DNA from: a virus
Lineage: Duplodnaviria > Heunggongvirae > Uroviricota > Caudoviricetes
Reading direction: 5' to 3' (one strand)
DNA length: 33,563 nucleotides
IMG/VR virus record: IMGVR_UViG_2690316149_000019
Shown: positions 1,237-28,028 of the stretch, piece after piece
Layout of the letters: each line of letters starts with the position of its first letter
Position numbering within the stretch: the first letter of the stretch is position 1
Program-made: the position numbers and the translations under genes
Notes under the pieces: model-generated
What the model was told of the DNA's origin: nothing
Databases searched by the model: none
What the model saw: the letters and a program-made list of their open reading frames with translations, nothing else

Positions 1237-1530
1237 TTAGCCAATCCTTTTCGCGGAGTGGTTGGACTCTGTTGACTCTGGCCCAATGTGCGCGAGAGCC
1301 GGTGCGATTTGTCCTGCGTCCGGCGCGGTTTTATCTGTCATAAGCCATAGAGCATATTTTTGGAATGTGGGATGCATAGTGATTTTTAGCAAAGCTGTGC
1401 CACCGGGTTCAAAGTTTCCTCCTTCATATTTTTTAAGTGTGCTTAGCGGTAACTCTATGATTTCACAGAATTTTGATTGGCTTAGCCCTTCAGCCTCACG
1501 CAAGGCCTTAATCTTTTCGCTTAATTTCAT
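1237..1530 (-). CDS. C: Immunity repressor (P2 C-like, XRE-type helix-turn-helix)
   Basis: 97 aa, with an N-terminal HTH (LSQSKFCEIIELPLSTLKKYE) and the P2 C-like C-terminal motif GQIAPALAH. Sits divergent from cox next to int, as in P2. Confidence 0.8.
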   Translation of the reverse strand: MKLSEKIKALREAEGLSQSKFCEIIELPLSTLKKYEGGNFEPGGTALLKITMHPTFQKYALWLMTDKTAPDAGQIAPALAHIGPESTESNHSAKRIG

Positions 1531-1589
1531 TTGACATGGTGCCTATATAGGGACTAAATTCCCTCAAAACTGGAACCTATATAGGTTCC
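1531..1589 (+). promoter_or_regulatory. Early rightward promoter (Pe-like) with two CCTATATAGG operator repeats
   Basis: TTGACA at 1531-1536 and TAAATT at 1555-1560 with 18-bp spacing. CCTATATAGG occurs at 1542-1551 and again inside the perfect 18-bp palindrome ggaacctatataggttcc (1572-1589). Confidence 0.55.
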
Positions 1590-1651
1590 ATTGATTTGAG
1601 AATAAACCAGCATCTAAACGGTTTTGAGTGGTTTAGAAAGGGCTGGATCCT

Positions 1652-1939
1652 ATGAGGGTACCATATATGGACGCTGAAAATTATGTGATTCAGTATCCGC
1701 TTGATGCGGTTCATGTGGATAAATTTGCTGATTTATTAGGGAAGCCAAAGACAGCCGTCAGTGAAATGGTGAAGGCAAATAAATTACCAATTATTGAATT
1801 GCGTGATCCTTGCAAACCGAAGGCTCGTGCCGGTGAAAAATGGGTTTTCATTCCTGAGTTTAATCGCGCTGTACGTGAGGCGTTTTATAACCGACCGGTT
1901 GAACAGCGTGATGCATGGCTTTTGTGGATGGGGTTGTGA
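1652..1939 (+). CDS. cox: Cox-like excisionase / early transcriptional regulator
   Basis: 95-aa ORF, first gene of the rightward early operon and divergent from C, in the P2 cox position. Confidence 0.7.
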   Translation: MRVPYMDAENYVIQYPLDAVHVDKFADLLGKPKTAVSEMVKANKLPIIELRDPCKPKARAGEKWVFIPEFNRAVREAFYNRPVEQRDAWLLWMGL

Positions 1940-3423: not shown

Positions 3424-3695
3424 GTATTCGTATTGAAATTGGCGAACGTTATGTCGTTACCAGTGACAGCTTTCAGTTTATTCTCCACGAGAAAAAGAGA
3501 GCGGAAAGCGGTAAAAACGCCGGTCAGGAATGGCTGGCGGTGGTTGGTTATTACCCGAAATTAGGCCAGCTCGTTTCCGGCCTGATGCATCACGATATTC
3601 TGACCGGAAGCGCAAAATCTTTTGCTGATTTAAACGCGCAGGTTGAGCAACTCAGCAAGCGTTGTTCAGAGGCTTTTGGCTCATATGGCCGTTAA
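3420..3695 (+). CDS. Small early protein (P2 orf83 position)
   Basis: 91-aa ORF overlapping its neighbours by a few nucleotides. Confidence 0.6.
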   Translation: MSIRIEIGERYVVTSDSFQFILHEKKRAESGKNAGQEWLAVVGYYPKLGQLVSGLMHHDILTGSAKSFADLNAQVEQLSKRCSEAFGSYGR

Positions 3696-5970
3696 AGCCT
3701 CCGGGCGTTTTGTCCCTCCGTCAGCATTTACCGCAGGCACCGGTAAGGCGTTTACCGGTGCTTATGCATGGAACGCGCCACGCGAGGCTGTCGGGCGCGA
3801 AAGACCTCTTACACGTGACGAGATGCGTCAGGTGCAAGGTGTTTTATCCACGATTAACCGCCTGCCTTACTTTTTGCGCTCGCTGTTTACTTCACGCTAT
3901 GACTACATCCGGCGCAATAAAAGCCCGGTGCACGGGTTTTATTTCCTCACATCTACTTTTCAGCGTCGTTTATGGCCGCGCATTGAGCGTGTGAATCAGC
4001 GCCATGAAATGAACACCGACGCGTCGTTGCTGTTTCTGGCAGAGCGTGACCACTATGCGCGCCTGCCGGGAATGAATGACAAGGAGCTGAAAAAGTTTGC
4101 CGCCCGTATCTCATCGCAGCTTTTCATGATGTATGAGGAACTCTGCGATGCATGGGTTGATGCGCATGGTGAAAAAGAATCGCTGTTTACGGATGAGGCG
4201 CAGGCTCACCTGTATGGTCATGTTGCTGGCGCTGCACGTGCTTTCAATATTTCCCCGCTCTACTGGAAAAAATACCGTAAAGGACAGATGACCACGAGGC
4301 AGGCATATTCTGCCATTGCCCGCCTGTTTAACGATGAGTGGTGGACTCATCAGCTTAAAGGCCAGCGTATGCGCTGGCATGAGGCGTTACTGATAGCTGT
4401 CGGGGAGGTCAATAAAGACCGTTCTCCTTATGCCAGTAAACACGCCATTCGTGATGTGCGTGCGCGCCGCCAGGCAAATCTGGAATTTCTTAAATCGTGT
4501 GACCTTGAAAACAGGGAAACCGGCGAGCGCATCGACCTTATCAGTAAGGTGATGGGCAGTATTTCTAATCCTGAAATTCGCCGGATGGAGCTGATGAACA
4601 CCATTGCCGGTATTGAGCGTTACGCCGCCGCAGAGGGTGATGTGGGGATGTTTATCACGCTGACCGCGCCGTCAAAGTATCACCCGACACGTCAGGTCGG
4701 AAAAGGCGAAAGTAAAACCGTTCAGCTTAATCACGGCTGGAACGATGAGGCATTTAATCCAAAGGATGCGCAGCGTTATCTCTGCCGTATCTGGAGCCTG
4801 ATGCGCACGGCATTCAAGGATAATGATTTACAGGTCTACGGTTTGCGAGTCGTCGAGCCACACCACGACGGAACGCCGCACTGGCATATGATGCTTTTTT
4901 GTCATCCACGCCAGCGTAACCAGATTATCGAAATCATGCGTCGCTATGCGCTCAAAGAGGATGGCGACGAAAGAGGAGCCGCGCGAAACCGTTTTCAGGC
5001 AAAACACCTTAACCGGGGCGGTGCTGCGGGATATATCGCGAAATACATTTCAAAAAACATCGACGGCTATGCACTGGATGGTCAGCTCGATAACGACACC
5101 GGCAGGCCGCTGAAAGACACTGCAGCGGCTGTTACCGCATGGGCGTCAACGTGGCGCATCCCGCAATTTAAAACGGTTGGCCTGCCGACAATGGGGGCTT
5201 ACCGTGAACTACGCAAATTGCCTCGCGGCGTCAGCATTGCTGATGAGTTTGACGAGCGCGTCGAGGCTGCACGCGCCGCCGCAGACAGTGGTGATTTTGC
5301 GCTGTATATCAGCGCGCAGGGCGGGGCAAATGTCCCGCGCGATTGTCAGACTGTCAGGGTCGCCCGTAGTCTGTCGGATGACGTTAACGAGTACGAGGAA
5401 GAAGTCGAGAGAGTGGTCGGCATTTACGCGCCGCATCTCGGCGCGCGTCATATTCATATCACCAGAACGACGGACTGGCGCATTGTGCCGAAAGTTCCAG
5501 TCGTTGAGCCTTTGACTTTAAAAAGCGGCATCGCCGCGCCTCGGAGTCCTGTCAATAACTGTGGAAAGCTCACTGGTGGTGATACTTCGTTACCGGCTCC
5601 CACGCCTTCTGAGCACGCCGCAGCCGTGCTTAATCTGGTTGATGACGGTGTTATCGAATGGAATGACCCGGAGGTCGTGAGGGCGCTCAGGGGCGCATTA
5701 AAACACGGCCTGCGAACGCCAAACCGTCAGCAAAGAAACGGAAGCCCGTTAAAACCGCATGAAATTGCGCCATCGGCCAGACTGACCCGGTCGGAAAGAA
5801 TGCAAATTACCCGTATCCGCGTTGACCTTGCTCAGAACGGTATCAGGCCGCAGCGATGGGAGCTTGAGGCGCTGGCGCGTGGCGCGATCGTAAATTATGA
5901 CGGGAAAAAATTCACGTATCCGGTCGCTGATGAGTGGCCGGGATTCTCAACAGTAATGGAGTGGACATAA
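3685..5970 (+). CDS. A: Rolling-circle replication initiator endonuclease A (HUH superfamily)
   Basis: Contains the HUH metal-binding motif (EPHHDGTPHWHMMLF) and the catalytic tyrosine motif (YIAKYISKNIDGY). 761 aa from ATG 3685; the six-frame ORF start at 3643 is an upstream in-frame extension that overlaps the preceding gene. Confidence 0.93.
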   Translation: MAVKASGRFVPPSAFTAGTGKAFTGAYAWNAPREAVGRERPLTRDEMRQVQGVLSTINRLPYFLRSLFTSRYDYIRRNKSPVHGFYFLTSTFQRRLWPRIERVNQRHEMNTDASLLFLAERDHYARLPGMNDKELKKFAARISSQLFMMYEELCDAWVDAHGEKESLFTDEAQAHLYGHVAGAARAFNISPLYWKKYRKGQMTTRQAYSAIARLFNDEWWTHQLKGQRMRWHEALLIAVGEVNKDRSPYASKHAIRDVRARRQANLEFLKSCDLENRETGERIDLISKVMGSISNPEIRRMELMNTIAGIERYAAAEGDVGMFITLTAPSKYHPTRQVGKGESKTVQLNHGWNDEAFNPKDAQRYLCRIWSLMRTAFKDNDLQVYGLRVVEPHHDGTPHWHMMLFCHPRQRNQIIEIMRRYALKEDGDERGAARNRFQAKHLNRGGAAGYIAKYISKNIDGYALDGQLDNDTGRPLKDTAAAVTAWASTWRIPQFKTVGLPTMGAYRELRKLPRGVSIADEFDERVEAARAAADSGDFALYISAQGGANVPRDCQTVRVARSLSDDVNEYEEEVERVVGIYAPHLGARHIHITRTTDWRIVPKVPVVEPLTLKSGIAAPRSPVNNCGKLTGGDTSLPAPTPSEHAAAVLNLVDDGVIEWNDPEVVRALRGALKHGLRTPNRQQRNGSPLKPHEIAPSARLTRSERMQITRIRVDLAQNGIRPQRWELEALARGAIVNYDGKKFTYPVADEWPGFSTVMEWT

Positions 5971-6422
5971 TGGCAAAAATTCACGAGGTAAAGCTGCACG
6001 CAAAATATTTCGACCTTGTGCTGGAAGGAAAGAAACGCGCAGAGTTTCGGAAAAATGACCGTAATTATGAGCGCGGGGACACGTTGATTTTGCATGAATG
6101 GGTGCAGGGTGTGTATACGGGGCGAAAGGTTGAAGCCCGGATAACAGATGTTACTGACCTGTCAGACTGGCTGGAAGATTATGTCTTGCTAAGTATTGAG
6201 CTGCTTAATACAGGTGCATATGAGATTGTGAACTGGAAAGAACTTAGTGAGCGTGGTCTGGTATTCAGAATTAATCATGAAATTATGCATCAGCTCGGCC
6301 TTGCTGTTATGTATGAACCAGAGACGGGGATGTCTGGCGGGGCAATGGTTGCCACGGATGGAGCATGGAACTATTCAGATGAACAGATGGAGCGTGCACA
6401 GCAAAACGGGTGGCTTGGATAA
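5970..6422 (+). CDS. Accessory protein with N-terminal ASCH/DUF3850-like (PUA-fold) domain and unknown C-terminal half
   Basis: N-terminus MAKIHEVKLHAKYFDLVLEGKKRAEFRKNDRNYERGDTLILHEW resembles DUF3850/ASCH domains. Start overlaps the A stop (TAATG). Occupies the position where P2 carries orf91/tin/old. Confidence 0.6.
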   Translation: MAKIHEVKLHAKYFDLVLEGKKRAEFRKNDRNYERGDTLILHEWVQGVYTGRKVEARITDVTDLSDWLEDYVLLSIELLNTGAYEIVNWKELSERGLVFRINHEIMHQLGLAVMYEPETGMSGGAMVATDGAWNYSDEQMERAQQNGWLG

Positions 6423-6655
6423 TGCACAGAATGCCAGGCGAGATACCGCACCATAAAACTAAAAATATCAAGCTGATGGCTGTTGTTCACCGTCTACAGC
6501 AGATTATGGTCAACGAAAATCTGACGCCCGATGAGCTGGTCGGGTGTGCCGAAATAGTCCGGGATAATTACAGACGGTTTAACGATATCAGTAGACAGAA
6601 AAGTGAGACATTTCGGCCAGCTAACATGCCAAAACCACCACCACGCAGGCCGTAG
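6422..6655 (+). CDS. Small hypothetical protein
   Basis: 77-aa ORF, start overlapping the upstream stop (TAATG); proline- and basic-rich C-terminus, no recognisable domain. Could be spurious. Confidence 0.35.
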   Translation: MHRMPGEIPHHKTKNIKLMAVVHRLQQIMVNENLTPDELVGCAEIVRDNYRRFNDISRQKSETFRPANMPKPPPRRP

Positions 6656-6888: not shown

Positions 6889-6917
6889 TTGACACAGGTT
6901 GTTGTGTGTGGTAAGGC
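6889..6917 (+). promoter_or_regulatory. Candidate sigma70 promoter for the peptidase gene
   Basis: TTGACA at 6889-6894 followed 17 nt later by a weak -10 (TAAGGC); AGGAGG Shine-Dalgarno at 6944-6949 before ATG 6954. Confidence 0.3.
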
Positions 6918-6953
6918 TGTATCCCTTTGGCATTCAAAATGTAGGAGGCAACC

Positions 6954-7430
6954 ATGAGCATCGCAGCTAAAAATCTGCTTAATCGCTATTGGGATCGCCG
7001 ACTACCTGTCGATCCGTTTAAGCTCGCCGCAGCGTGGGGTGCAAGAGTGGAGCCGCTCAGGGAACCAGCGAATGGGTTAAGTGGTTCAGCCGTAATAGAA
7101 AATGGCATACCTTATATTTATTTTAACTCAAATGAACATTACAACCGCCAACGCTTTACTGTAGCGCATGAGCTCGGTCATCATGTTTTAGGGCATACTC
7201 AAGACGGAGAATATCATCGCGATATTGTAGGCAACTACTCAACTGGCATCCGTGATTATCGTGAAATAGAAGCTAACCAGTTTGCTGCAGAGCTATTGAT
7301 GCCGGAAGAGGCCATTCGTCAACTAGTGTCGCGTATAGGCGTTGATAGTACATTACGTTTGGCAAACATATTTAACGTTTCTGAGGCTGCTATGCACTGG
7401 CGTCTTAAAGCGTTGGGTATGGCTTACTAA
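6954..7430 (+). CDS. ImmA/IrrE-family (COG2856-like) zinc metallopeptidase
   Basis: HEXXH motif in FTVAHELGHHVLGH and a downstream glutamate-containing motif (EANQFAAELLMP). 158 aa with a strong AGGAGG ribosome-binding site. Confidence 0.75.
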   Translation: MSIAAKNLLNRYWDRRLPVDPFKLAAAWGARVEPLREPANGLSGSAVIENGIPYIYFNSNEHYNRQRFTVAHELGHHVLGHTQDGEYHRDIVGNYSTGIRDYREIEANQFAAELLMPEEAIRQLVSRIGVDSTLRLANIFNVSEAAMHWRLKALGMAY

Positions 7431-7460
7431 TACCCTCTTTAACTTTTTTCAAACCGGTTT

Positions 7461-7495
7461 AAAATCACCATTATTTTATTAATAATGGTGATTTT
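7461..7495. promoter_or_regulatory. Perfect 15-bp inverted repeat (aaaatcaccattatt / aataatggtgatttt, 5-nt loop) abutting the ATG of the membrane-protein gene
   Basis: Seen in sequence. Preceded by the 10-bp palindrome aaaccggttt (7451-7460) and followed by a T-run; the right arm contains the only Shine-Dalgarno-like element (GGTGA) for ATG 7498. Confidence 0.6.
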
Positions 7496-7497
7496 TT

Positions 7498-8118
7498 ATG
7501 GCAGATATCGACCTCTCTGGCCAATCTCCGGCTCAGTCTTCCCAGCCATCCAAAACTTCAACCTTTCCACATCCACCTAGCGATGCCGATCCAGATATTT
7601 TGTTACGTAGAGAAGTGCATGATGGCATGGAAAGGAGGGGAATGCGCTTAGTTTTGTCAGCCACCGTACTTTTTTTTGCCATAATGTTTTTATGGAAAGG
7701 TCTGTATTTCGCTCTCGAAGTCGGAAATGGTTTGCTTGCGGCTAAAAGTAGTATTGTTTCAGCGTTGGCACAAAATGATGAAAAGGTTGTTTGCGAACCT
7801 AAAACTAAATGTATTGAGCCTAAACAGCAGACAATGAAACCTACAGAAAAAACTCCCGGCATGTCAACAAAGGGTGATAGAGTAATGCCAAACTTATCTA
7901 CAGATTGGCTTTCTGCAAGTTCGCTAATTGCCATAGTCGCTTTCATCCTTGGTGTTGGCTTGACGTTAATCCTTACCCTACTTAAGTCCGCTTTTCATCA
8001 TCCGACTGATAAAAATCTCAATGAGCAAAAAACAACAGATGCGATTGAGTTGGCGACTCCCTTAAGTGAGTTAATCGCGGGTATTATTAATTATCTCAAG
8101 AGCAAATTTTCTAAATAA
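7498..8118 (+). CDS. Membrane protein of unknown function (two predicted transmembrane helices)
   Basis: 206 aa with hydrophobic stretches LVLSATVLFFAIMFLWKGLYFAL and LIAIVAFILGVGLTLILTLL and a Pro/Ser/Thr-rich N-terminus; lower GC than the phage core. Confidence 0.6.
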   Translation: MADIDLSGQSPAQSSQPSKTSTFPHPPSDADPDILLRREVHDGMERRGMRLVLSATVLFFAIMFLWKGLYFALEVGNGLLAAKSSIVSALAQNDEKVVCEPKTKCIEPKQQTMKPTEKTPGMSTKGDRVMPNLSTDWLSASSLIAIVAFILGVGLTLILTLLKSAFHHPTDKNLNEQKTTDAIELATPLSELIAGIINYLKSKFSK

Positions 8119-8327
8119 CGTCCTCTTGGTTATTTTTTAAATCAGCACCATTAGTGCCGGTTTTTTTATGCTGTTTTACTGTAATTTCCCTGTTTTTAAG
8201 CCGTGCATGCAGCAGGTGCATGGTTTTGCATGCGCAGGAAGTGTCCGTTCTGGCCGAGCACCGGCAGAACGGACGCGGATCCAGAACGGTCATGCAACTG
8301 CATTCAAACCACCCCATGAAGCGGGCG

Positions 8328-8346: not shown

Positions 8347-8515
8347 TGCGCGCTGGCGGTGGTGCTGATTTTATTTTTTCAGCGTCTGAGCGCGTCGTGA
8401 TGGCGTTTAGATTGTGCGCCGGGGCGTTGGTGTGTCTGCGGGCTGTTTTGTGCGGTGGTGAGCGTGTGAGGGCGTGATGACGGGGGGTAAAAAAGCCGCC
8501 CGCAGGCGGCGATGT

Positions 8516-9550
8516 TCAGCCGTTGTCAGTGTCCAGTGAGTAGTTTTTAAAGCGGATGACCTCCTGACCGAGCCAGCCGTTTATCTCGCGGATCCTGTCC
8601 TGTAACGGGATAAGCTCATTGCGGACAAAGACCTTTGCCACTTTCTCAATATCACCCAGCGACCCGACGTTCTCCGGCTTGCCGCCCATCAACTGAAAGG
8701 GGATGCGGTGCGCGTCCAGCAGGTCAGCGGCGCTGGCTTTTTTGATATTAAAAAAATCGTCCTTCGTTGCCACTTCACTGAGCGGGATAATTTTAATGCC
8801 GTCGGCTTTCCCCTGCGGGGCATAGAGAAACAGATTTTTAAAGTTGTTGCGGCCTTTCGACTTGACCATGTTTTCGCGAAGCATTTCGATATCGTTGCGA
8901 TCCTGCACGGCATCGGTAACGTACATGATATATCCGGCATGAGCGCCGTTTTCGTAATACTTGCGGCGGAACAGCGTGGCCGACTCATTCAGCCAGGCAG
9001 AATTAAGGGCGCTGAGATATTCCGGCAGGCCGTACAGCTCCTGATTAATATCCGGCTCCAGCAGGTGAAACACGGAGCCGGGTGCGAAGGCTGTCGGCTC
9101 GTTGAAGGACGGCACCCACCAGTAAACATCCTCCTCCACACCTCGGCGGGTATATTTTGCCGGTGAGGTTTCCAGTCTGATGACCTTACCGGTGGTGCTG
9201 TAACGCTTTTCCAGAAACGCATTACCGAACACCAGAAAATCCAGCACAAAGCGGCTGAAATCCTGCTGGGAAAGCCACGGATGCGGGATAAATGTCGAGG
9301 CCAGAATATTACGTTTGACGTAAATCGGTGAGCTGTGATGCACGGCAGCACGCAGGCTTTTTGCCAGACCGGTAAAGCTGATCGGTGGCTCATACCATCT
9401 GCCGTTACTGATGCACTCGACGTAATCCAGAATGTCACGGCGGTCGAGTACCGGCACCGGCTCACCAAAGGTGAATGCTTCCATTTTCGGGGCGCTGGCG
9501 GTCATTGTTTTTGCCGCAGGTTGCGGTGTTTTCCCTTTTTTCTTGCTCAT
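8516..9550 (-). CDS. Q: Portal protein
   Basis: 344-aa ORF matching P2 gpQ in length and position; start overlaps the stop of P. Confidence 0.9.
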   Translation of the reverse strand: MSKKKGKTPQPAAKTMTASAPKMEAFTFGEPVPVLDRRDILDYVECISNGRWYEPPISFTGLAKSLRAAVHHSSPIYVKRNILASTFIPHPWLSQQDFSRFVLDFLVFGNAFLEKRYSTTGKVIRLETSPAKYTRRGVEEDVYWWVPSFNEPTAFAPGSVFHLLEPDINQELYGLPEYLSALNSAWLNESATLFRRKYYENGAHAGYIMYVTDAVQDRNDIEMLRENMVKSKGRNNFKNLFLYAPQGKADGIKIIPLSEVATKDDFFNIKKASAADLLDAHRIPFQLMGGKPENVGSLGDIEKVAKVFVRNELIPLQDRIREINGWLGQEVIRFKNYSLDTDNG

Positions 9551-11322
9551 CAGTAAAACTCCAGAATGGTGGATGTCAGCGGGGTGCTGATACCGGCGGT
9601 GAGTGGCTCATTTAACAGGGCGTGCATGGTCGCCCAGGCGAGGTCGGCGTGGCTGGCTTCCTCGCTGCGGCTGGCCTCATAGGTGGCGCTGCGTCCGCTG
9701 CTGGTCATGGTCTTGCGGATAGCCATAAACGAGCTGGTGATGTCGGTGGCGCTGACGTCATATTCCAGACAGCCACGGCGGATAACGTCTTTTGCCTTGA
9801 GCACCATTGCGGTTTTCATTTCCGGCGTGTAGCGGATGTCGCGCGCGGCGGGATAGAACGAGCGCACGAGCTGGAACACGCCGACACCGAGGCCGGTGGC
9901 ATCAATACCGATGTATTCAACGTTATATTTTTCGGTGAGTTTGCGGATGGATTCCGCCTGAGTGGCAAAGTCCATGCCTTTCCACTGGTGACGCTCAAGT
10001 ATTCTGAATTTGCCACCGGCCACCACCGGCGGTGCCAGCACCACGCATCCGGCGCTGTCGCCACGGTGTGACGGGTCGTAACCAATCCATACCGGGCGGG
10101 AGCCGAACGGATTGGCGGCAAACGGCGCATAGTCTTCCCATTCTTCCAGCGTGTCGACCATGCAGCGTTGCAGCTCCTCGAACGGGAACACCGACGCCTT
10201 GTCGTCAACAAATTCACACATGAACAGGTTTTTAAAATCGTCGGCGCTGTTTTCACGTTTGAGCTGCTCAATGTCGAACAGCGTGCAGCCACCTTTCAGG
10301 GCGTCCTCAATGGTGACAATCTGCCGCCACTGGCCGTCCGCACAGAGAAGCCCACCGGCAAGGGCGTTATGACTGACGTCGATTTCCACGCGTTCGGCGG
10401 CGCTGGCGCGTCCCCGGTTGAACAGTTCACCTGACCAGAACGGGTAGGCGTCGTGCGCCAGCGTGGACGGGGTGGAGAAATAGGTCGAACGCAGGTGACT
10501 CTGTGAGGCCATACCTGATGCCACCTTACGCAGTACCTGAAAATTCGGGATCCAGAAAATCTCGTCGACGTACAGGTCGCCGTTATGGCTCTGTGCGGTG
10601 TTGGAGTTGGTGCCGAGAAAAATTAGTTTTGCGCCGTTATTGCCCAGGACAATCGGGTCACCGGTCAGGTCAACGTCAACCAGACGGGCAAAGGCGATGA
10701 TGTATTCGCGGAACACATACGCCTGCGTTTTACTGGCCGACAGAAAAATCTGGTTATGGCCGGTTTTCAGGGCGCGCAGCAGCGCCTCGCGGGAAAAATA
10801 AAACGTTGCGCCAATCTGGCGGGATTTCAGTATATCGCGGATGCGGTGCTCAAGCCCGGCGCGATACCAGTGCAACTGATAGTCGAAAGACTGCTCAAAG
10901 AAAATCTGCTCCAGCTTTTCGATGGCTTCGTCACTGAAAAAATTCTTTTTCGGTTTGCGACGCCCGCCTTTGTTGCGGTTAGCGACGTTCGGATTAAGGT
11001 CTGCCTCGTTGCCGGTCTGACTGTAGCGGTTGACCCGCGCCAGTCGTTCAATCTGGCGTCCCAGCAGGTCAATTTCCTTGAAGTCACCGCCGGTTTTCTG
11101 CGGTTTGATGATGAGCTGGGTCAGCCGCGCTTCCAGGCTCATTTCGACACGGCTGATGGGGGCAACGCTGTCCCAGCCGTCGCGCTGTTTCCAGCTCTGC
11201 ACCGTCGGGCGTTTCATCTGCAACATGGCGGCAATCTGCGGCACGGAAAACCCCTGCCAGTACAGCAGCGCCGCCTGCCGACGCGGGTCGTGTAAAAGAG
11301 TGGTGTCTGTGGTGATGGTCAT
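9550..11322 (-). CDS. P: Terminase large subunit (ATPase)
   Basis: 590 aa from MTITTDTTLLHDPRRQAALLYWQGF, a P2 gpP-like N-terminus. The longer six-frame ORF (to 11352) is an upstream extension. Confidence 0.9.
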   Translation of the reverse strand: MTITTDTTLLHDPRRQAALLYWQGFSVPQIAAMLQMKRPTVQSWKQRDGWDSVAPISRVEMSLEARLTQLIIKPQKTGGDFKEIDLLGRQIERLARVNRYSQTGNEADLNPNVANRNKGGRRKPKKNFFSDEAIEKLEQIFFEQSFDYQLHWYRAGLEHRIRDILKSRQIGATFYFSREALLRALKTGHNQIFLSASKTQAYVFREYIIAFARLVDVDLTGDPIVLGNNGAKLIFLGTNSNTAQSHNGDLYVDEIFWIPNFQVLRKVASGMASQSHLRSTYFSTPSTLAHDAYPFWSGELFNRGRASAAERVEIDVSHNALAGGLLCADGQWRQIVTIEDALKGGCTLFDIEQLKRENSADDFKNLFMCEFVDDKASVFPFEELQRCMVDTLEEWEDYAPFAANPFGSRPVWIGYDPSHRGDSAGCVVLAPPVVAGGKFRILERHQWKGMDFATQAESIRKLTEKYNVEYIGIDATGLGVGVFQLVRSFYPAARDIRYTPEMKTAMVLKAKDVIRRGCLEYDVSATDITSSFMAIRKTMTSSGRSATYEASRSEEASHADLAWATMHALLNEPLTAGISTPLTSTILEFY

Positions 11323-11495
11323 GAATACCTCGCCGTGATGAATACACGGCAAGGCTACTGAGTCGCGCCCCGCGATTCGCTAAGGTGCTGTTGTGTCAGT
11401 GATAAGCCATCCGGGACTGATGGCGGAGGATGCGCATCGTCGGGAAACTGATGCCGACATGTGACTCCTCTAATCACTATTCAGGACTCCTGACA

Positions 11496-16805: not shown

Positions 16806-17247
16806 GGCGCTGACTGATGCCGTCACGGTGCTGAAAACTAACCCCGATATGCTGCAGATATTCGTGGATAACGGGAGTATTGCCTCCACGCTGGCGACGT
16901 CGCTGTCGTTCGAAAAGCGTTACACGCTCAATGTGATTGTGACCGACTTTACCGGTGATTTTGACCTGCTCATCGTGCCGGTGCTGGCGTGGCTGCGGGA
17001 AAATCAGCCCGACATCATGACCACCGACGAAGGCCAGAAAAAGGGCTTCACGTTTTATGCAGACATCAACAATGACAGCAGCTTTGATATCAGCATCAGC
17101 CTGATGCTGACCGAGCGCACGCTGGTCAGTGAGGTGGGCGGCGCACTGCATGTGAAGAATATCCCGGAACCTCCGCCGCCGGAGCCGGTCACCCGCCCGA
17201 TGGAGCTGTATATCAATGGCGAACTGGTGAGCAAGTGGGATGAATGA
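16780..17247 (+). CDS. R: Tail completion protein R
   Basis: 155 aa, P2 gpR length and position. Confidence 0.85.
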   Translation: MLKPDSLRRALTDAVTVLKTNPDMLQIFVDNGSIASTLATSLSFEKRYTLNVIVTDFTGDFDLLIVPVLAWLRENQPDIMTTDEGQKKGFTFYADINNDSSFDISISLMLTERTLVSEVGGALHVKNIPEPPPPEPVTRPMELYINGELVSKWDE

Positions 17248-17692
17248 GTTTAAGCGTTTTGAAGACCGGCTGACCGGACTGATTGAGTCGCTGTCACCGT
17301 CAGGGCGTCGGCGACTGAGTGCCGAACTGGCGAAACGTCTGCGGCAGAGTCAGCAGCGTCGGGTGATGGCGCAGAAAGCCCCGGACGGCACACCCTACGC
17401 GCCACGTCAGCAGCAGAGCGTCAGAAAAAAGACCGGTCGTGTTAAGCGAAAAATGTTTGCGAAACTTATCACCAGTCGTTTTTTGCATATCCGCGCCAGC
17501 CCGGAGCAGGCATCAATGGAATTTTACGGCGGGAAGTCGCCGAAAATCGCCAGTGTGCATCAGTTCGGTCTGTCGGAAGAAACCCGGAAAGACGGTAAGA
17601 AAATTGATTATCCGGCGCGTCCTCTGCTCGGCTTTACCGGTGAGGATGTGCAGATGATTGAGGAGATTATCCTGGCTCACCTTGAGCGTTAG
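17240..17692 (+). CDS. S: Tail completion protein S
   Basis: 150 aa, P2 gpS length and position. Confidence 0.85.
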   Translation: MNEFKRFEDRLTGLIESLSPSGRRRLSAELAKRLRQSQQRRVMAQKAPDGTPYAPRQQQSVRKKTGRVKRKMFAKLITSRFLHIRASPEQASMEFYGGKSPKIASVHQFGLSEETRKDGKKIDYPARPLLGFTGEDVQMIEEIILAHLER

Positions 17693-17722
17693 TTTTATCC
17701 AGGCAGAGGCTGATGCGCAATT

Positions 17723-17757
17723 AAACATTGAGCGGCCATGCTGGTCGCTCAATGTTT
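17723..17757. terminator. Bidirectional stem-loop between convergent S and the moron gene
   Basis: aaacattgagcg (loop gccatgctggt) cgctcaatgttt: a 12-bp perfect stem. Confidence 0.55.
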
Positions 17758-17763
17758 AGAGGT

Positions 17764-18549
17764 TTATGAGTGATTTTTATTTGATGCTTTGTATTCTAAA
17801 ACCTTCTTATTGGCGTAAAAGAATTTTGTATATGACAGGAATATAACCAGACCTGAAGTGAAATAGACGAGGGATAGTATTAATAATGCTTTTTTGTGAC
17901 TGTTATTATCTTTAATCTCCTGGCTTAACCATTCGGAGTCCTCCTCGTTTAGCTGTAAGAGCTTATTGCAGGCGATTTCAGGAAGTGTGTCTTTTATAAA
18001 TACGTTTTGCAGTCTCTTGCAATCGGCAAGGCTATAAGTTTTATTAAATTCAACTGCTTTATTTTTGAAGGATAAAAGAACTTTGTCACTATAAACATAG
18101 TACATCATATTTTTATATGGTATGCCTATGGCATCTCTTACTATAGCGGATTGTTTGTTGTGTATATAACATGCGAAGAGAATATAAATAATACTGGCCA
18201 GAATTACAATTATTGTTTTAATTATGTGTGGTGGTTTTGTTATGTCACCCCAGATGCGAGTAAGGAAAAAATACGATGTTTTTAGTTTTCCATCAATCAG
18301 TCCCTGCTGTATCATTCTCACATTTTCAATGCCTGATACATTGATTCCGTTAATTATTTTAAATAGTTGAATGTCGCGCCACTCGCGGTCAAGTCTTTTT
18401 AATTTTTTGTCTGAATATCCAAAATTGAAATAATGTGCAATAAGCCTCATAAGGTTACTTTTACCAAAGCTAAAAAATGCTAATACTGCAAAGCTACAAA
18501 GGAAAAAAACGATTAGCCCCCACACATTAGTCACATTATAGCTGACCAT
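17764..18549 (-). CDS. AT-rich moron: membrane protein of unknown function (P2 orf30 position)
   Basis: 261 aa with three hydrophobic helices (N-terminal, central, C-terminal), Lys/Asn/Ile/Tyr-rich. Much lower GC than the flanking tail genes and transcribed against the late operon. Confidence 0.7.
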   Translation of the reverse strand: MVSYNVTNVWGLIVFFLCSFAVLAFFSFGKSNLMRLIAHYFNFGYSDKKLKRLDREWRDIQLFKIINGINVSGIENVRMIQQGLIDGKLKTSYFFLTRIWGDITKPPHIIKTIIVILASIIYILFACYIHNKQSAIVRDAIGIPYKNMMYYVYSDKVLLSFKNKAVEFNKTYSLADCKRLQNVFIKDTLPEIACNKLLQLNEEDSEWLSQEIKDNNSHKKALLILSLVYFTSGLVIFLSYTKFFYANKKVLEYKASNKNHS

Positions 18550-27544: not shown

Positions 27545-27600
27545 TTTTCATCCGGTCAGCCTGGCTGACCGGTTAACCCCGATTCAGAAGTGAGAAAACC

Positions 27601-27876
27601 ATGAACAAAGAAAACGTCATTACCCTGGATAATCCGGTCAAGCGTGGTGAACAGGTTATCGAACAGGTCACGCTGATGAAACCCAATGCCGGGACGCTGC
27701 GCGGTGTCAGTCTGGCTGCGGTCGCGAACTCTGAAGTCGATGCACTGATTAAGGTGCTGCCGCGCATGACGGCACCGATGCTGACCGAGCAGGAAGTCGC
27801 CGCGCTGGAACTGCCTGACCTTGTGGCGCTGGCCGGTAAGGTGGTCGGTTTTTTGTCGCCGAACTCGGTGCAGTGA
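27601..27876 (+). CDS. E: Tail assembly chaperone E
   Basis: 91 aa; contains the slippery heptamer T_TTT_TTG at 27849-27855 near its 3' end. Confidence 0.85.
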   Translation: MNKENVITLDNPVKRGEQVIEQVTLMKPNAGTLRGVSLAAVANSEVDALIKVLPRMTAPMLTEQEVAALELPDLVALAGKVVGFLSPNSVQ

Positions 27877-28028
27877 CGTTTCCGAAAAATCTCTCGGTCG
27901 ATGACCTGATGGCGGATGTGGCAGTGATATTTCACTGGCCGCCATCAGAACTGTATCCCATGAGCCTGACCGAACTCATCACATGGCGCGAAAAGGCGCT
28001 CCGGCGAAGCGGAAACACGAATGAGTAA
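27601..28028 (+). CDS. E': Tail assembly chaperone E+E', made by programmed -1 ribosomal frameshift at about 27855
   Basis: After the TTTTTTG slip the -1 frame is open for 58 codons (VAELGAVTFPKNLSVDDLMADVAVIFHWPPSELYPMSLTELITWREKALRRSGNTNE) and ends at TAA 28026-28028, overlapping the T start. Gives a 142-aa fusion, as in P2. Confidence 0.75.

What the first reader, a model, noticed from the sequence alone, without database searches (positions are those of the whole stretch)
7451..7497. Perfect 15-bp inverted repeat that sequesters the ribosome-binding site of the membrane-protein gene
The 10-bp palindrome aaaccggttt is followed by a 15-bp perfect inverted repeat with a 5-nt loop ending 2 nt before ATG 7498. 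The only Shine-Dalgarno-like sequence (GGTGA) lies in the 3' arm. The structure could act as an intrinsic terminator or attenuator after the peptidase gene, a translational lock on the putative effector, or an operator for a dimeric regulator.
Basis: seen in the sequence. Interest (0 to 1): 0.5.

Follow-up and report, generated by a model that had tools for sequence, protein, structure and literature searches.

The report
Conserved RNA hairpin throttling a membrane-protein gene
Between a small peptidase gene and a membrane-protein gene carried by a P2-like prophage lies a conserved RNA hairpin that looks like a transcription terminator and also buries the second gene's ribosome-binding site, an ordinary kind of control that most likely keeps a probably toxic protein scarce.

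Summary
Arms 7461-7475 and 7481-7495 form a perfect 15-bp hairpin with a 5-nt loop, then TT and ATG 7498. The only Shine-Dalgarno sequence (GGTGA, 7487-7491) lies in the 3' arm. No simulated window reached 15 bp (0 of 300).

The hairpin is under selection. The gene pair, an ImmA/IrrE M78 peptidase without an HTH plus a two-helix membrane protein, was found in 24 sequence variants from four clades. Membrane-protein identity falls to 23-30%. All 24 variants keep the same layout: A-run, stem with invariant CACC:GGUG, U-run, AUG. Six pair positions show compensatory changes. G·U pairs fit only the + strand. Loop length (4-14 nt) and CACC-to-GGUG distance (10-22 nt) vary. The rest of the spacer is not conserved.

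These features indicate a + strand RNA element and argue against a dimeric operator. The AAACCGGTTT palindrome is not conserved.

The most likely function is an intercistronic attenuator-terminator combined with a Shine-Dalgarno lock. It would hold the toxin-like membrane protein far below the peptidase. The two mechanisms cannot be separated in silico.

This is a new member of a known kind, of modest interest. The gene pair is an undescribed Rosmer-like candidate module.

The parts
7461..7475 (+). 5' arm of the hairpin. It consists of an A-run (7461-7464), then UCACC, then AUUAUU. AUCACC (7464-7469) is identical to part of the 16S rRNA 3' end (own knowledge) and pairs with the SD of the next gene.
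   Evidence: CACC is invariant in 24 variants, and the flanking positions covary with the 3' arm.
7476..7480 (+). Loop (UUAUU).
   Evidence: In relatives the loop varies in sequence and length (4-14 nt). Identity between clades is 0.30, about the level of the unconserved spacer.
7481..7495 (+). 3' arm of the hairpin. It contains the Shine-Dalgarno sequence GGUGA(U) at 7487-7492.
   Evidence: SD:anti-SD duplex is -9.1 kcal/mol at 7487. GGUG is invariant in 24 variants.
7492..7497 (+). U-run of six. The first four U pair with the A-run, and the last two are free and abut the AUG. It is both the U-tract of the terminator-like shape and the SD-to-AUG spacer.
   Evidence: The U-run is 4-8 nt in all 24 variants and at least 6 nt in 23 of them. 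With the stem taken as UCACC...GGUGA (7465-7491, -12.1 kcal/mol) the terminator-type score is d = +8.4, rank 6 of 196 sites.
7498..8118 (+). The controlled gene. It encodes a 206-aa protein with two long hydrophobic helices and a C-terminal amphipathic helix (phrog_8096, function unknown). It is the probable toxic or effector partner.
   Evidence: It has no Pfam or PADLOC hit. Opening its RBS costs 19.0 kcal/mol, against a median of 8.95 for 40 ORFs of the window.
6954..7430 (+). Upstream gene of the operon. It encodes a 158-aa ImmA/IrrE (Peptidase_M78) metallopeptidase with the HEXXH motif and no HTH domain. It has a strong exposed SD (AGGAGG, 6943-6948).
   Evidence: Pfam PF06114 8e-23. PADLOC capP 3.8e-31 and RmrA up to 7.5e-20. 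PDB CapP 7t5t and IrrE 3dte at about 1e-5. SD conserved in all loci. RBS opening cost 9.1 kcal/mol.
6889..6917 (+). Candidate sigma-70 promoter of the two-gene operon. It comprises TTGACA (6889-6894), a 17-nt spacer ending in TG-n (6909-6911), and TAAGGC (6912-6917).
   Evidence: Sequence. It is conserved in the window's clade and in L019. It was not called by the consensus scan, so this part is inference.
8141..8168 (+). Weak terminator-like site after the membrane-protein gene: a short stem GCAC...GUGC followed by U7. It may mark the end of the module.
   Evidence: d = -8.4, weaker than the internal hairpin. Not examined in relatives.

Best explanation
The element is a cis-acting RNA stem-loop on the + strand, in the 67-nt spacer of a two-gene operon (M78 peptidase, then membrane protein). 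Its shape is A-run, stem, loop, stem, U-run. That is the shape of an intrinsic terminator or attenuator, so a share of transcripts from the peptidase promoter probably end at the U-run, just at the AUG of the second gene. On transcripts that read through, the same helix pairs the whole Shine-Dalgarno sequence GGUGAU with AUCACC, a copy of the ribosome's own anti-SD. Initiation at AUG 7498 is therefore strongly disfavoured: the hairpin is -16 kcal/mol against -9 kcal/mol for SD:16S pairing. The net effect is a fixed throttle. Much peptidase is made (strong open SD) and very little membrane protein. This is what one expects if the membrane protein is the toxic or effector partner and the peptidase its antitoxin or controller, as in Rosmer-type ImmA-peptidase toxin-antitoxin defence pairs.

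Shown here: the structure, its statistical excess, its conservation, covariation and strand specificity, the position of the SD, and the absence of an alternative fold.

Inferred: that termination and/or translational repression occur in vivo, their relative shares, and the toxin/antitoxin roles of the two proteins.
For: (1) The structure is real and non-random.

(2) It is kept in every relative found: 24 distinct spacer variants in four clades. These come from P2-like prophages, a P1-like phage, plasmids, IS-flanked islands and chromosomal sites, with membrane-protein identity down to 23-30%.

(3) On a 15-sequence alignment, 93.3% of cells pair, against 40-68% when the partners are slid. Four pairs change on both sides, and 0 of 500 shuffles reach the covariation score. 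In a manual register of 24 sequences, six pair positions show compensatory changes. These include U-A to C-G and A-U to G-C directly beside the invariant CACC:GGUG core in the far clade.

(4) The G·U and U·G pairs (L002, L003, L007) would be C-A or A-C mismatches on the other strand or in a DNA palindrome.

(5) Between clades, arm identity is 0.76-0.84. Loop identity is 0.30 and identity of the rest of the spacer is 0.28.

(6) The SD lies inside the helix in all variants. Opening the RBS costs 19.0 kcal/mol, the highest among ATG-initiated ORFs of the window (median 8.95; peptidase 9.1). No competing fold exists in a 350-nt context.

(7) The A-run and the U-run followed directly by AUG are kept in all clades. 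A terminator-type score is positive and ranks 6th of 196 sites in the window. The far clade has a canonical-looking G+C-rich stem, GCCACC/GGUGGC, followed by U6-7.

(8) Precedents exist. A palindromic terminator between the antitoxin and toxin genes sets their ratio in type III TA loci (PMC3401426). SD-burying helices silence T4 e, soc, 49 and I-TevI on long transcripts (PMC3014915). ImmA-protease antitoxins pair with membrane-depolarising toxins in RosmerTA (PMC10440598).
Against: There are no transcript or protein data for any member.

The window's stem is A+U-rich (3 G-C pairs of 15). The built-in terminator scan did not list it, probably because the first four U count as stem. My terminator score uses a formula recalled from memory.

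One variant (L022) has only UUUUAAUG after the stem.

A lock of 16-19 kcal/mol with no alternative fold would nearly abolish translation. How the conserved, evidently selected membrane protein is ever made is therefore unexplained. Some unlocking route (an internal start, cleavage, or standby binding) may exist.

Nine of 15 pairs never vary, so part of the conservation could reflect sequence-specific recognition rather than pairing alone.

The covariation rests on few independent events (four clades).
Confidence: 0.7

Rival explanations
1. Terminator plus bypass promoter, following the logic of T4 gene e. The hairpin ends and silences the long peptidase transcript. The membrane gene would be expressed from a second promoter whose -10 overlaps the 5' base of the hairpin, so that transcription starts inside the 5' arm and yields an mRNA with a free SD. 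The promoter could be a weak sigma-70 promoter or one read by an infecting phage's polymerase.
For: A -10-like hexamer sits at the 5' edge of the stem in every clade: TAAAAT or TAGAAT (7460-7465) in the window's clade, invariant TATAAAT(C) in the ~50% clade, and TAGAAT or TACAAT in the far clade. In the ~50% clade the unpaired TAT is invariant although the rest of the spacer is only 0.51 identical. TATAAATC matches 7 of 8 positions of the T4 late-promoter consensus (own knowledge). The T4 precedent is documented (PMC3014915). This reading would explain how the protein gets made despite the lock.
Against: No acceptable -35 is present, and the scan does not call a promoter there. The only call, TTTAAA-17-AATAAT at 7458-7486, would give a nearly leaderless RNA and is lost in the L003 clade. 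The -10-like hexamers sit in different registers in the three clades. Such hexamers are expected anyway in an A-run next to A+T-rich sequence. The window's own clade does not match the T4 late consensus.
Confidence: 0.12
2. Conditionally opened lock. The helix is the target of a trans-acting factor that releases translation of the membrane protein on a signal such as phage infection. Candidate factors are RNase III or RNase E cleavage that removes the 5' arm, a helicase, or an RNA-binding protein.
For: Nine pairs are invariant in sequence and not only in pairing. The lock is too strong to open spontaneously, and no alternative fold exists. The module lies in the P2 defence hotspot between the replication and portal genes (PMC9519451).
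Against: SD function plus the requirement to pair explains the invariance of CACC/GGUG. Stem length varies from 9 to 16 bp and the far clade changes the adjacent bases, so no extended recognition sequence is conserved. No factor is encoded in the module.
Confidence: 0.1
3. DNA operator. The inverted repeat binds a dimeric repressor, in the manner of ImmR/ImmA or CapH/CapP, and controls transcription of the membrane gene.
For: The repeat is a perfect palindrome in the window. M78 peptidases usually work with an HTH repressor that they cleave (PMC10440598). The peptidase's best PADLOC hit is capP.
Against: The distance between the conserved half-sites varies from 10 to 22 nt. Several relatives match only through G·U, which would be mismatches in DNA. 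No HTH or other DNA-binding domain is present in either protein. The motif does not recur at the peptidase promoter. The U-run is conserved only on the + strand side.
Confidence: 0.03
4. RNA thermometer. The A+U-rich helix over the SD melts at host temperature.
For: The stem is A+U-rich and includes a run of U near the SD, which superficially resembles fourU elements (own knowledge).
Against: The helix is perfect and is predicted to remain folded up to 70 C (-14.2 kcal/mol at 42 C). Relatives vary stem length from 9 to 16 bp with no conserved weak points.
Confidence: 0.02

Closest known systems
SD-sequestering helices of phage T4 genes e, soc, 49 and I-TevI (PMC3014915)
   Same: A helix formed with upstream RNA buries the Shine-Dalgarno sequence of a potentially harmful gene on transcripts that come from an upstream promoter. 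The setting is a phage, and the helix is conserved among relatives.
   Different: In T4 a late promoter lies in the 5' strand and provides unlocked transcripts. No such promoter is established here. The helix here also carries an A-run/U-run terminator shape and sits between two genes of one small operon.
[quoted passage not shown]
   Same: A short palindrome directly before the toxin gene is proposed to limit toxin transcript relative to the upstream antitoxin. The loci are mobile and linked to phage defence.
   Different: In those loci the antitoxin is a repeated RNA and the toxin an endoribonuclease. Here the upstream product is a metallopeptidase and the downstream one a membrane protein, and the toxin/antitoxin roles are untested.
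Generic Rho-independent terminators with a matching upstream A-tract (own knowledge)
   Same: The order is A-tract, stem-loop, U-tract. It lies about 30 nt after a stop codon, and the U-tract is conserved on one strand only.
   Different: The window's stem is A+U-rich. The U-tract abuts a start codon, and the stem contains that gene's SD, so the element cannot be a simple end-of-operon signal.
RosmerTA defence/toxin-antitoxin systems (RmrA ImmA-protease antitoxin plus diverse RmrT toxins, one of them membrane-depolarising; PMC10440598), as context for the gene pair
   Same: An M78/ImmA-type peptidase is paired with a small membrane protein on phages and plasmids. The peptidase hits PADLOC RmrA models.
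   Different: The peptidase here lacks the N-terminal HTH of typical RmrA, and its best hit is capP. The membrane partner matches no PADLOC or Pfam model. Neither toxicity nor defence has been tested.
ImmR/ImmA and CapH/CapP repressor-protease switches
   Same: The protease family is the same, and an inverted repeat lies near the regulated gene.
   Different: No repressor gene or HTH domain is present in the module, and the repeat behaves as RNA (variable spacing, G·U pairs).

Membership tests
Rho-independent (intrinsic) terminator / attenuator | Stable stem-loop immediately followed by a U-rich tract on the transcribed strand | tested here: met
   The stem 7465-7491 (-12.1 kcal/mol) is followed by UUUUUUAU. 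A U-run of 4-8 is kept in 24 of 24 variants and only on the + strand.
Rho-independent (intrinsic) terminator / attenuator | G+C-rich stem, especially at its base; recognised by terminator predictors | tested here: inconclusive
   The window's stem has 3 G-C pairs of 15, and the built-in scan did not list it. My own d'Aubenton-Carafa-type score (formula from memory) is +8.4, rank 6 of 196. The far clade has GCCACC/GGUGGC.
Rho-independent (intrinsic) terminator / attenuator | RNA 3' ends at the U-tract in vivo or in vitro | not testable with these tools
   No transcript data are available. The module occurs in 50 of 5426 complete E. coli genomes, none of them a standard laboratory strain.
SD-sequestering translational hairpin (T4 e/soc/49/I-TevI type) | Shine-Dalgarno sequence and/or start codon inside a stable helix | tested here: met
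   GGUGAU (7487-7492) is fully paired with pair probabilities of at least 0.99. The opening cost is 19.0 kcal/mol against a median of 8.95.
SD-sequestering translational hairpin (T4 e/soc/49/I-TevI type) | Helix conserved among relatives through compensatory change | tested here: met
   six covarying pair positions, 93.3% of cells paired against 40-68% for slid controls.
SD-sequestering translational hairpin (T4 e/soc/49/I-TevI type) | Second promoter within the 5' strand that yields unlocked transcripts | tested here: inconclusive
   There are -10-like hexamers at the 5' base in all clades, but no -35, no consistent register, and no call by the scan.
SD-sequestering translational hairpin (T4 e/soc/49/I-TevI type) | Measured repression of translation relieved by arm mutations | not testable with these tools
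   This needs reporter fusions or toeprinting.
Operator for a dimeric HTH repressor (ImmR/CapH type) | Half-sites at fixed spacing, palindromic at the DNA level | tested here: not met
   The CACC-to-GGTG distance varies from 10 to 22 nt. The G·U positions are DNA mismatches.
Operator for a dimeric HTH repressor (ImmR/CapH type) | Cognate DNA-binding regulator encoded with it | tested here: not met
   The only Pfam hit in the peptidase is Peptidase_M78, and the membrane protein has none. The NCBIfam and PDB hits cover the protease domain only.
RNA thermometer (fourU / ROSE) | Imperfect, marginally stable helix over the SD that melts between 30 and 42 C | tested here: not met
   The helix is a perfect 15 bp, at -16.0 kcal/mol at 37 C and -14.2 at 42 C, and is still folded at 70 C in prediction.
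Type III toxin-antitoxin locus (ToxIN-like) | Tandem RNA repeats (antitoxin), then a palindromic terminator, then an endoribonuclease toxin gene | tested here: not met
   The palindrome before the downstream gene is present. However, the upstream element is a protein-coding M78 peptidase gene, and the downstream product is a membrane protein with no nuclease match. It may work like these loci but is not a member.
RosmerTA (the gene pair, not the hairpin) | RmrA: HTH domain fused to an ImmA/M78 peptidase domain | tested here: not met
   The peptidase domain matches RmrA models (up to 7.5e-20), but only their C-terminal halves. The protein is 158 aa with no HTH, and its best hit is capP at 3.8e-31.
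RosmerTA (the gene pair, not the hairpin) | Adjacent toxin neutralised by the peptidase protein; anti-phage phenotype | not testable with these tools
   The partner is a membrane protein of unknown function (phrog_8096). AF2 confidence is low (pLDDT 59).
Any Rfam family | Match at or near the gathering score | tested here: not met
   The best hit is mir-451 at 21.8 bits against a gathering score of 66.5, which is a chance match to a hairpin.

The most novel reading that the evidence does not exclude
The hairpin is not a passive throttle but the safety catch of an abortive-infection switch. In uninfected lysogens the membrane toxin is transcriptionally attenuated and translationally locked. Infection would then produce an unlocked mRNA and trigger membrane damage. 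Two routes are conceivable: transcription starting inside the 5' arm from the TATAAAT/TAAAAT element by a phage-modified polymerase, or cleavage of the 5' arm. The defence module would thus read a phage's own gene-expression machinery through an RNA structure.
Probability: 0.1. Interest if true: 0.75.

Novelty: new member of a known kind. Interest (0 to 1): 0.35.

Why it matters
The hairpin itself is a textbook kind of control, an intercistronic terminator or SD-burying helix, so it does not change understanding. Its value is as a marker and a handle. It is the only conserved non-coding feature of a mobile two-gene module, an HTH-less ImmA/IrrE peptidase plus a phrog_8096 membrane protein. That module sits in the P2 defence hotspot and also on plasmids, a P1-like phage and islands, and it is absent from current defence catalogues.

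The strict retention of a lock on the second gene is indirect evidence that the membrane protein is harmful when over-made. That supports a toxin/effector and antitoxin/controller reading of the pair. It also tells anyone who clones the system that the native spacer must be kept, or deliberately mutated.

It also illustrates how a TA-like pair whose antitoxin lacks a DNA-binding domain may set its product ratio through RNA structure instead of autorepression.

Tried and rejected
- Two scans of genome contigs with membrane-protein alignments found no relative.
- A literature search for the RefSeq protein accessions found nothing. The P2-hotspot papers do not describe this pair.
- Rfam at a permissive E-value gave only chance hairpin hits.
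- A riboswitch-like or antiterminator alternative fold was rejected. Forcing either arm open in a 350-nt context gives no competing helix and costs 14-19 kcal/mol.
- A thermometer was rejected.
- An antisense RNA (hok/sok-like) was rejected. There is no minus-strand promoter-like site near the element. The start of the membrane ORF is poorly conserved. The minus-strand tail after the hairpin has only 3-4 U.
- A leader peptide from ATG 7485 in the 3' arm was rejected. Its frame relative to the main ORF changes with U-run length (6, 7 or 8 T). It is in frame only in some relatives, where gene callers then annotate a false MVIFFM N-terminus.
- A recurring operator motif at the peptidase promoter was not found.
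- A pattern scan of viral contigs for AAATCACCAT-N-ATGGTGATTTT was uninformative. Besides known relatives it returned unrelated hairpins and coding matches. The core sequence is therefore not specific to this module.
- MAFFT misaligned the far clade's 5' arm, so pair counts for all 24 variants were made in a manual register anchored on CACC/GGTG.
- The AF2 model of the membrane protein was of too low confidence (pLDDT 59) for a fold search.

Full report
**Setting**

The window is a P2-like (pro)phage. The replication gene A lies at 3643-5970 (PF05840, 2.9e-124). The portal gene lies at 8516-9550 on the minus strand, and the terminase gene at 9550-11352 on the minus strand.

The finding lies in the cargo region between A and the portal gene. 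Two papers describe this position as a hotspot for anti-phage systems in P2-like phages (PMC9519451; PMC9122126). The cargo on the + strand comprises:
- an ASCH/DUF3850 gene (5934-6422);
- a small phrog_11386 ORF (6410-6655);
- a 158-aa ImmA/IrrE Peptidase_M78 gene (6954-7430);
- a 67-nt spacer;
- a 206-aa ORF (7498-8118) with no Pfam or PADLOC match, assigned to phrog_8096 of unknown function.

**The observation**

The sequence reads AAACCGGTTT (7451-7460), then AAAATCACCATTATT (7461-7475), TTATT, AATAATGGTGATTTT (7481-7495), TT, and ATG (7498). The repeat finder reports the 15-nt arms as 100% complementary. It is the longest perfect inverted repeat in the window.

RNAfold of 7425-7530 gives -22.2 kcal/mol, with z = -4.36 and none of 200 shuffles as stable. 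The hairpin alone is about -16 kcal/mol. In 300 Markov simulations of the whole window, the longest perfect stem with a 3-10 nt loop averaged 8.9 bp and never reached 15.

GGTGA (7487-7491) is the only anti-SD-complementary stretch before the ATG, at -9.1 kcal/mol. An in-frame TGA at 7489-7491 fixes ATG 7498 as the start.

**Relatives**

Fifty of 5426 complete E. coli genomes carry the peptidase/membrane pair at the same P2 position. The membrane protein has 42 clusters of relatives, mostly annotated in Enterobacterales.

DNA was retrieved from viral contigs, assemblies, plasmids and metagenomes. It shows the pair on other elements as well:
- next to sopAB on a plasmid (L022);
- beside repL on a conjugative Vibrio plasmid (L026);
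- in a P1-like phage (L025);
- in IS-flanked islands (L020, L024);
- in a far clade (L058-L060, 23-30% membrane-protein identity) next to a fieF-like gene.

A ~161-aa M78 peptidase always precedes the membrane gene, and the spacer is always 66-71 nt in the 15 loci where it was measured. The pair is therefore a mobile two-gene module.

**The hairpin is conserved as a structure on the + strand**

Every one of 24 distinct spacer variants folds into a hairpin at the same place.

On a 15-sequence alignment, 93.3% of cells form standard pairs, against 40-68% when the 3' partners are slid by 1-3 columns. Four pairs change on both sides. None of 500 column shuffles reaches the observed covariation score.

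MAFFT misplaced the far clade, so I counted all 24 variants in a register anchored on the invariant CACC and GGTG. The results are:
- Stems are 9-16 bp and loops 4-14 nt.
- The distance from CACC to GGTG is 10-22 nt.
- Compensatory changes occur at six pair positions.
- These include U-A to C-G and A-U to G-C immediately next to the core in the far clade (AAAGCCACC-N10-GGUGGCUUU).
- They also include U-A to C-G in the distal stem between the two main clades.
- G·U or U·G pairs occur in L002, L003/L015 and L007/L052. They are legitimate only in + strand RNA.

Between clades, arm identity is 0.76-0.84. Loop identity is 0.30 and identity of the remaining spacer is 0.28. The hairpin is thus the only conserved element of the spacer.

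The palindrome AAACCGGTTT is not part of it. Its centre changes to CCAG, CCTG, CCCG or GCAG in close relatives, and it is absent elsewhere.

**What is invariant**

Three things never change:
- the CACC:GGUG core, which is the SD and its mask;
- an A-run of at least three on the 5' side;
- a U-run (4-8 nt, and at least 6 nt in 23 of 24 variants) that runs straight into the AUG.

The 5' arm AUCACC is the same sequence as the 16S rRNA tail that the SD GGUGAU would pair with (own knowledge of the E. coli 16S 3' end, GAUCACCUCCUUA). The mask therefore competes directly with the ribosome, at -16 kcal/mol against -9.1 kcal/mol.

Opening the RBS (-15 to +5) costs 19.0 kcal/mol. The median over 40 ORFs of the window is 8.95, and the peptidase gene costs 9.1. 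The three ORFs that score as high or higher begin at GTG or TTG codons and probably have misplaced starts. A fourth ORF, ATG-initiated on the minus strand (27556-27945), scores slightly lower at 17.5 and is probably spurious.

The peptidase gene carries a strong, exposed and universally conserved GTAGGAGGC.

**Terminator-like shape**

The order A-run, stem, loop, stem, U-run is the anatomy of an intrinsic terminator. If the four A-U pairs at the base are counted as tract rather than stem, the element is an 11-bp stem (-12.1 kcal/mol) followed by UUUUUUAU. A d'Aubenton-Carafa-type score, with the formula recalled from memory and therefore rough, is +8.4. That ranks sixth of 196 candidate sites on both strands of the window.

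The built-in scan did not list it. The probable reason is that it takes the maximal 15-bp stem and then finds too few T after it. The far clade's version (GCCACC/GGUGGC plus U6-7) looks canonical. On the minus strand the tail has only 3-4 U. The terminator-like asymmetry therefore points the same way as the G·U pairs.

**Mechanism**

I conclude that the element is a + strand RNA hairpin that lowers expression of the membrane gene relative to the peptidase gene. It would do so by ending part of the transcripts at the U-run, and by hiding the SD on those that continue. Both features are conserved to the same degree, and I could not separate them without transcript or reporter data.

There is no sign of a switch. 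No alternative fold competes, and the hairpin's pair probabilities are 0.71-1.0 in a 350-nt context. It is predicted to stay folded up to 70 C.

The operator reading fails on variable half-site spacing, on DNA-level mismatches, and on the absence of any DNA-binding domain in the module. No copy of the motif lies at the peptidase promoter.

**Why a throttle makes sense here**

The peptidase has an intact HEXXH motif. It matches CapP (PADLOC 3.8e-31; PDB 7t5t, 1.3e-5), IrrE, and the protease halves of RmrA models.

In RosmerTA systems an ImmA-type protease protein is the antitoxin, and the toxins are diverse. One validated toxin depolarises membranes (PMC10440598). rmrA is essential in three Pectobacteriaceae strains (bioRxiv 10.64898/2025.12.09.693261).

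The window's partner protein is predicted, at low confidence (pLDDT 59), to consist of two long hydrophobic helices and a C-terminal amphipathic helix. It evolves faster than the peptidase: 23-30% against 44-48% identity to the far clade.

By analogy, the membrane protein would be the toxic or effector partner. The peptidase here lacks the HTH domain that typical RmrA proteins have and that could support autoregulation. The module may therefore set its ratio through RNA structure. This is inference.

Known precedents for the logic are the palindromic terminator before the toxin gene of type III TA loci (PMC3401426) and the SD-burying helices of T4 e, soc, 49 and I-TevI (PMC3014915).

**Open problem and the less ordinary reading**

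A 16-19 kcal/mol lock with no alternative fold should nearly abolish translation. Yet the membrane protein is clearly under selection.

A -10-like hexamer lies at the 5' base of the stem in each clade. In the ~50% clade an unpaired, invariant TAT makes TATAAAT(C), which resembles the T4 late-promoter consensus (own knowledge). A start about 7 nt downstream would fall inside the 5' arm and give an unlocked mRNA, exactly as for T4 gene e.

Against this reading, there is no -35. The hexamers are in different registers in the clades. The scan calls no such promoter. The window's own clade (TAAAAT) does not fit the T4 consensus. I rate this and other conditional-unlock readings at about 0.1 each.

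One further hint comes from L019. Its peptidase and promoter belong to the window's clade (81-88% identity). Its spacer, hairpin subtype and membrane protein belong to the other clade. The hairpin has therefore travelled with the downstream gene.

**Verdict**

The element is a new, uncatalogued member of a well-known kind of cis-regulatory RNA (no Rfam match). Its interest is modest in itself and somewhat greater as the conserved safety catch of an undescribed Rosmer-like peptidase/membrane-protein module in the P2 defence hotspot.

Noticed in passing
window 6954-8118 (also L002-L029, L050-L060): The peptidase/membrane-protein pair is a mobile two-gene module. It occurs in the P2 A-Q hotspot, a P1-like phage, plasmids (next to sopAB or repL), IS-flanked islands and a chromosomal site. 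The membrane partner (phrog_8096) is in no defence catalogue searched, and the peptidase lacks the HTH of RmrA. It is a candidate Rosmer-like TA/defence system.
   Followed up: partly
L019:2445-3588: This locus looks recombinant. Its peptidase (81-88% identical) and promoter are of the window's clade, but its spacer, hairpin subtype (AUCAU/AUGAU) and membrane protein are of the other clade. The crossover is near the peptidase stop codon, and the hairpin went with the membrane gene.
   Followed up: partly
window 7485-7500 and relatives (P0010, P0012, P0013, P0022, P0027): The T-run between the SD and the ATG varies from 4 to 8 among relatives. With 8 T, the ATG inside the 3' arm comes into frame, and gene callers annotate a spurious N-terminal MVIFFM extension.
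   Followed up: yes
L019-L029, L057, just 5' of the stem; window 7458-7465: An invariant unpaired TAT precedes the stem in the ~50% clade, giving TATAAAT(C), which is similar to a T4 late promoter. The window's clade has TAAAAT or TAGAAT and the far clade TAGAAT or TACAAT. The conservation is unexplained. A possible start inside the 5' arm is untested.
   Followed up: partly
window 7437-7447: CTTTAACTTTT is strictly kept in the window's clade. TTAACTTT (7439-7446) matches 8 of 9 bases of the T7 gene-10 'epsilon' translational enhancer UUAACUUUA (resemblance recalled from memory). It is absent in other clades, where a CU-rich tract (CUUCCC or CUCUUU) follows the stop codon instead.
   Followed up: no
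window 7367-7421: A long, stable helix is predicted inside the 3' end of the peptidase ORF in the 350-nt fold. Its conservation was not examined.
   Followed up: no
L020:3658-4572, L026:3163-4083, L027:3132-4046: In some loci a third gene follows about 40 nt after the membrane gene on the same strand. It encodes a ~304-aa hypothetical protein with no Pfam hit on record. It is absent from the window. L003 and L004 have an opposite-strand ~313-aa hypothetical protein instead.
   Followed up: no
L032:6064-6098: An unrelated viral contig has the same AAAATCACCAT...ATGGTGATTTT hairpin between a TAA stop codon and an ATG 3 nt after the stem. This may be an independent case of the same stop-hairpin-start arrangement.
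   Followed up: no
L001 (E. coli OHT76-1, NZ_CP135244.1): A copy of the module identical to the window's sits in a decayed P2-like prophage. The replication gene is a pseudogene, the portal and terminase genes are missing, and an IS21-family ISEc12 element is nearby.
   Followed up: no
window 17722-17758: A 17-nt inverted repeat, 94% complementary with a 3-nt spacer, lies between the convergent ends of ORFs 17240-17692 (+) and 17764-18549 (-). It is probably a bidirectional terminator.
   Followed up: no
window 1536-1603: A cluster of overlapping palindromes built on CCTATATAGG lies between divergent ORFs 1237-1530 (-) and 1652-1939 (+). The position suggests the operator region of the immunity switch.
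   Followed up: no
window 8495-8510 (-): A strong G+C-rich terminator (GCCGCCTGCGGGCGGC followed by T6) lies just after the portal gene on the minus strand. It would shield the cargo module from antisense read-through of the late operon.
   Followed up: no
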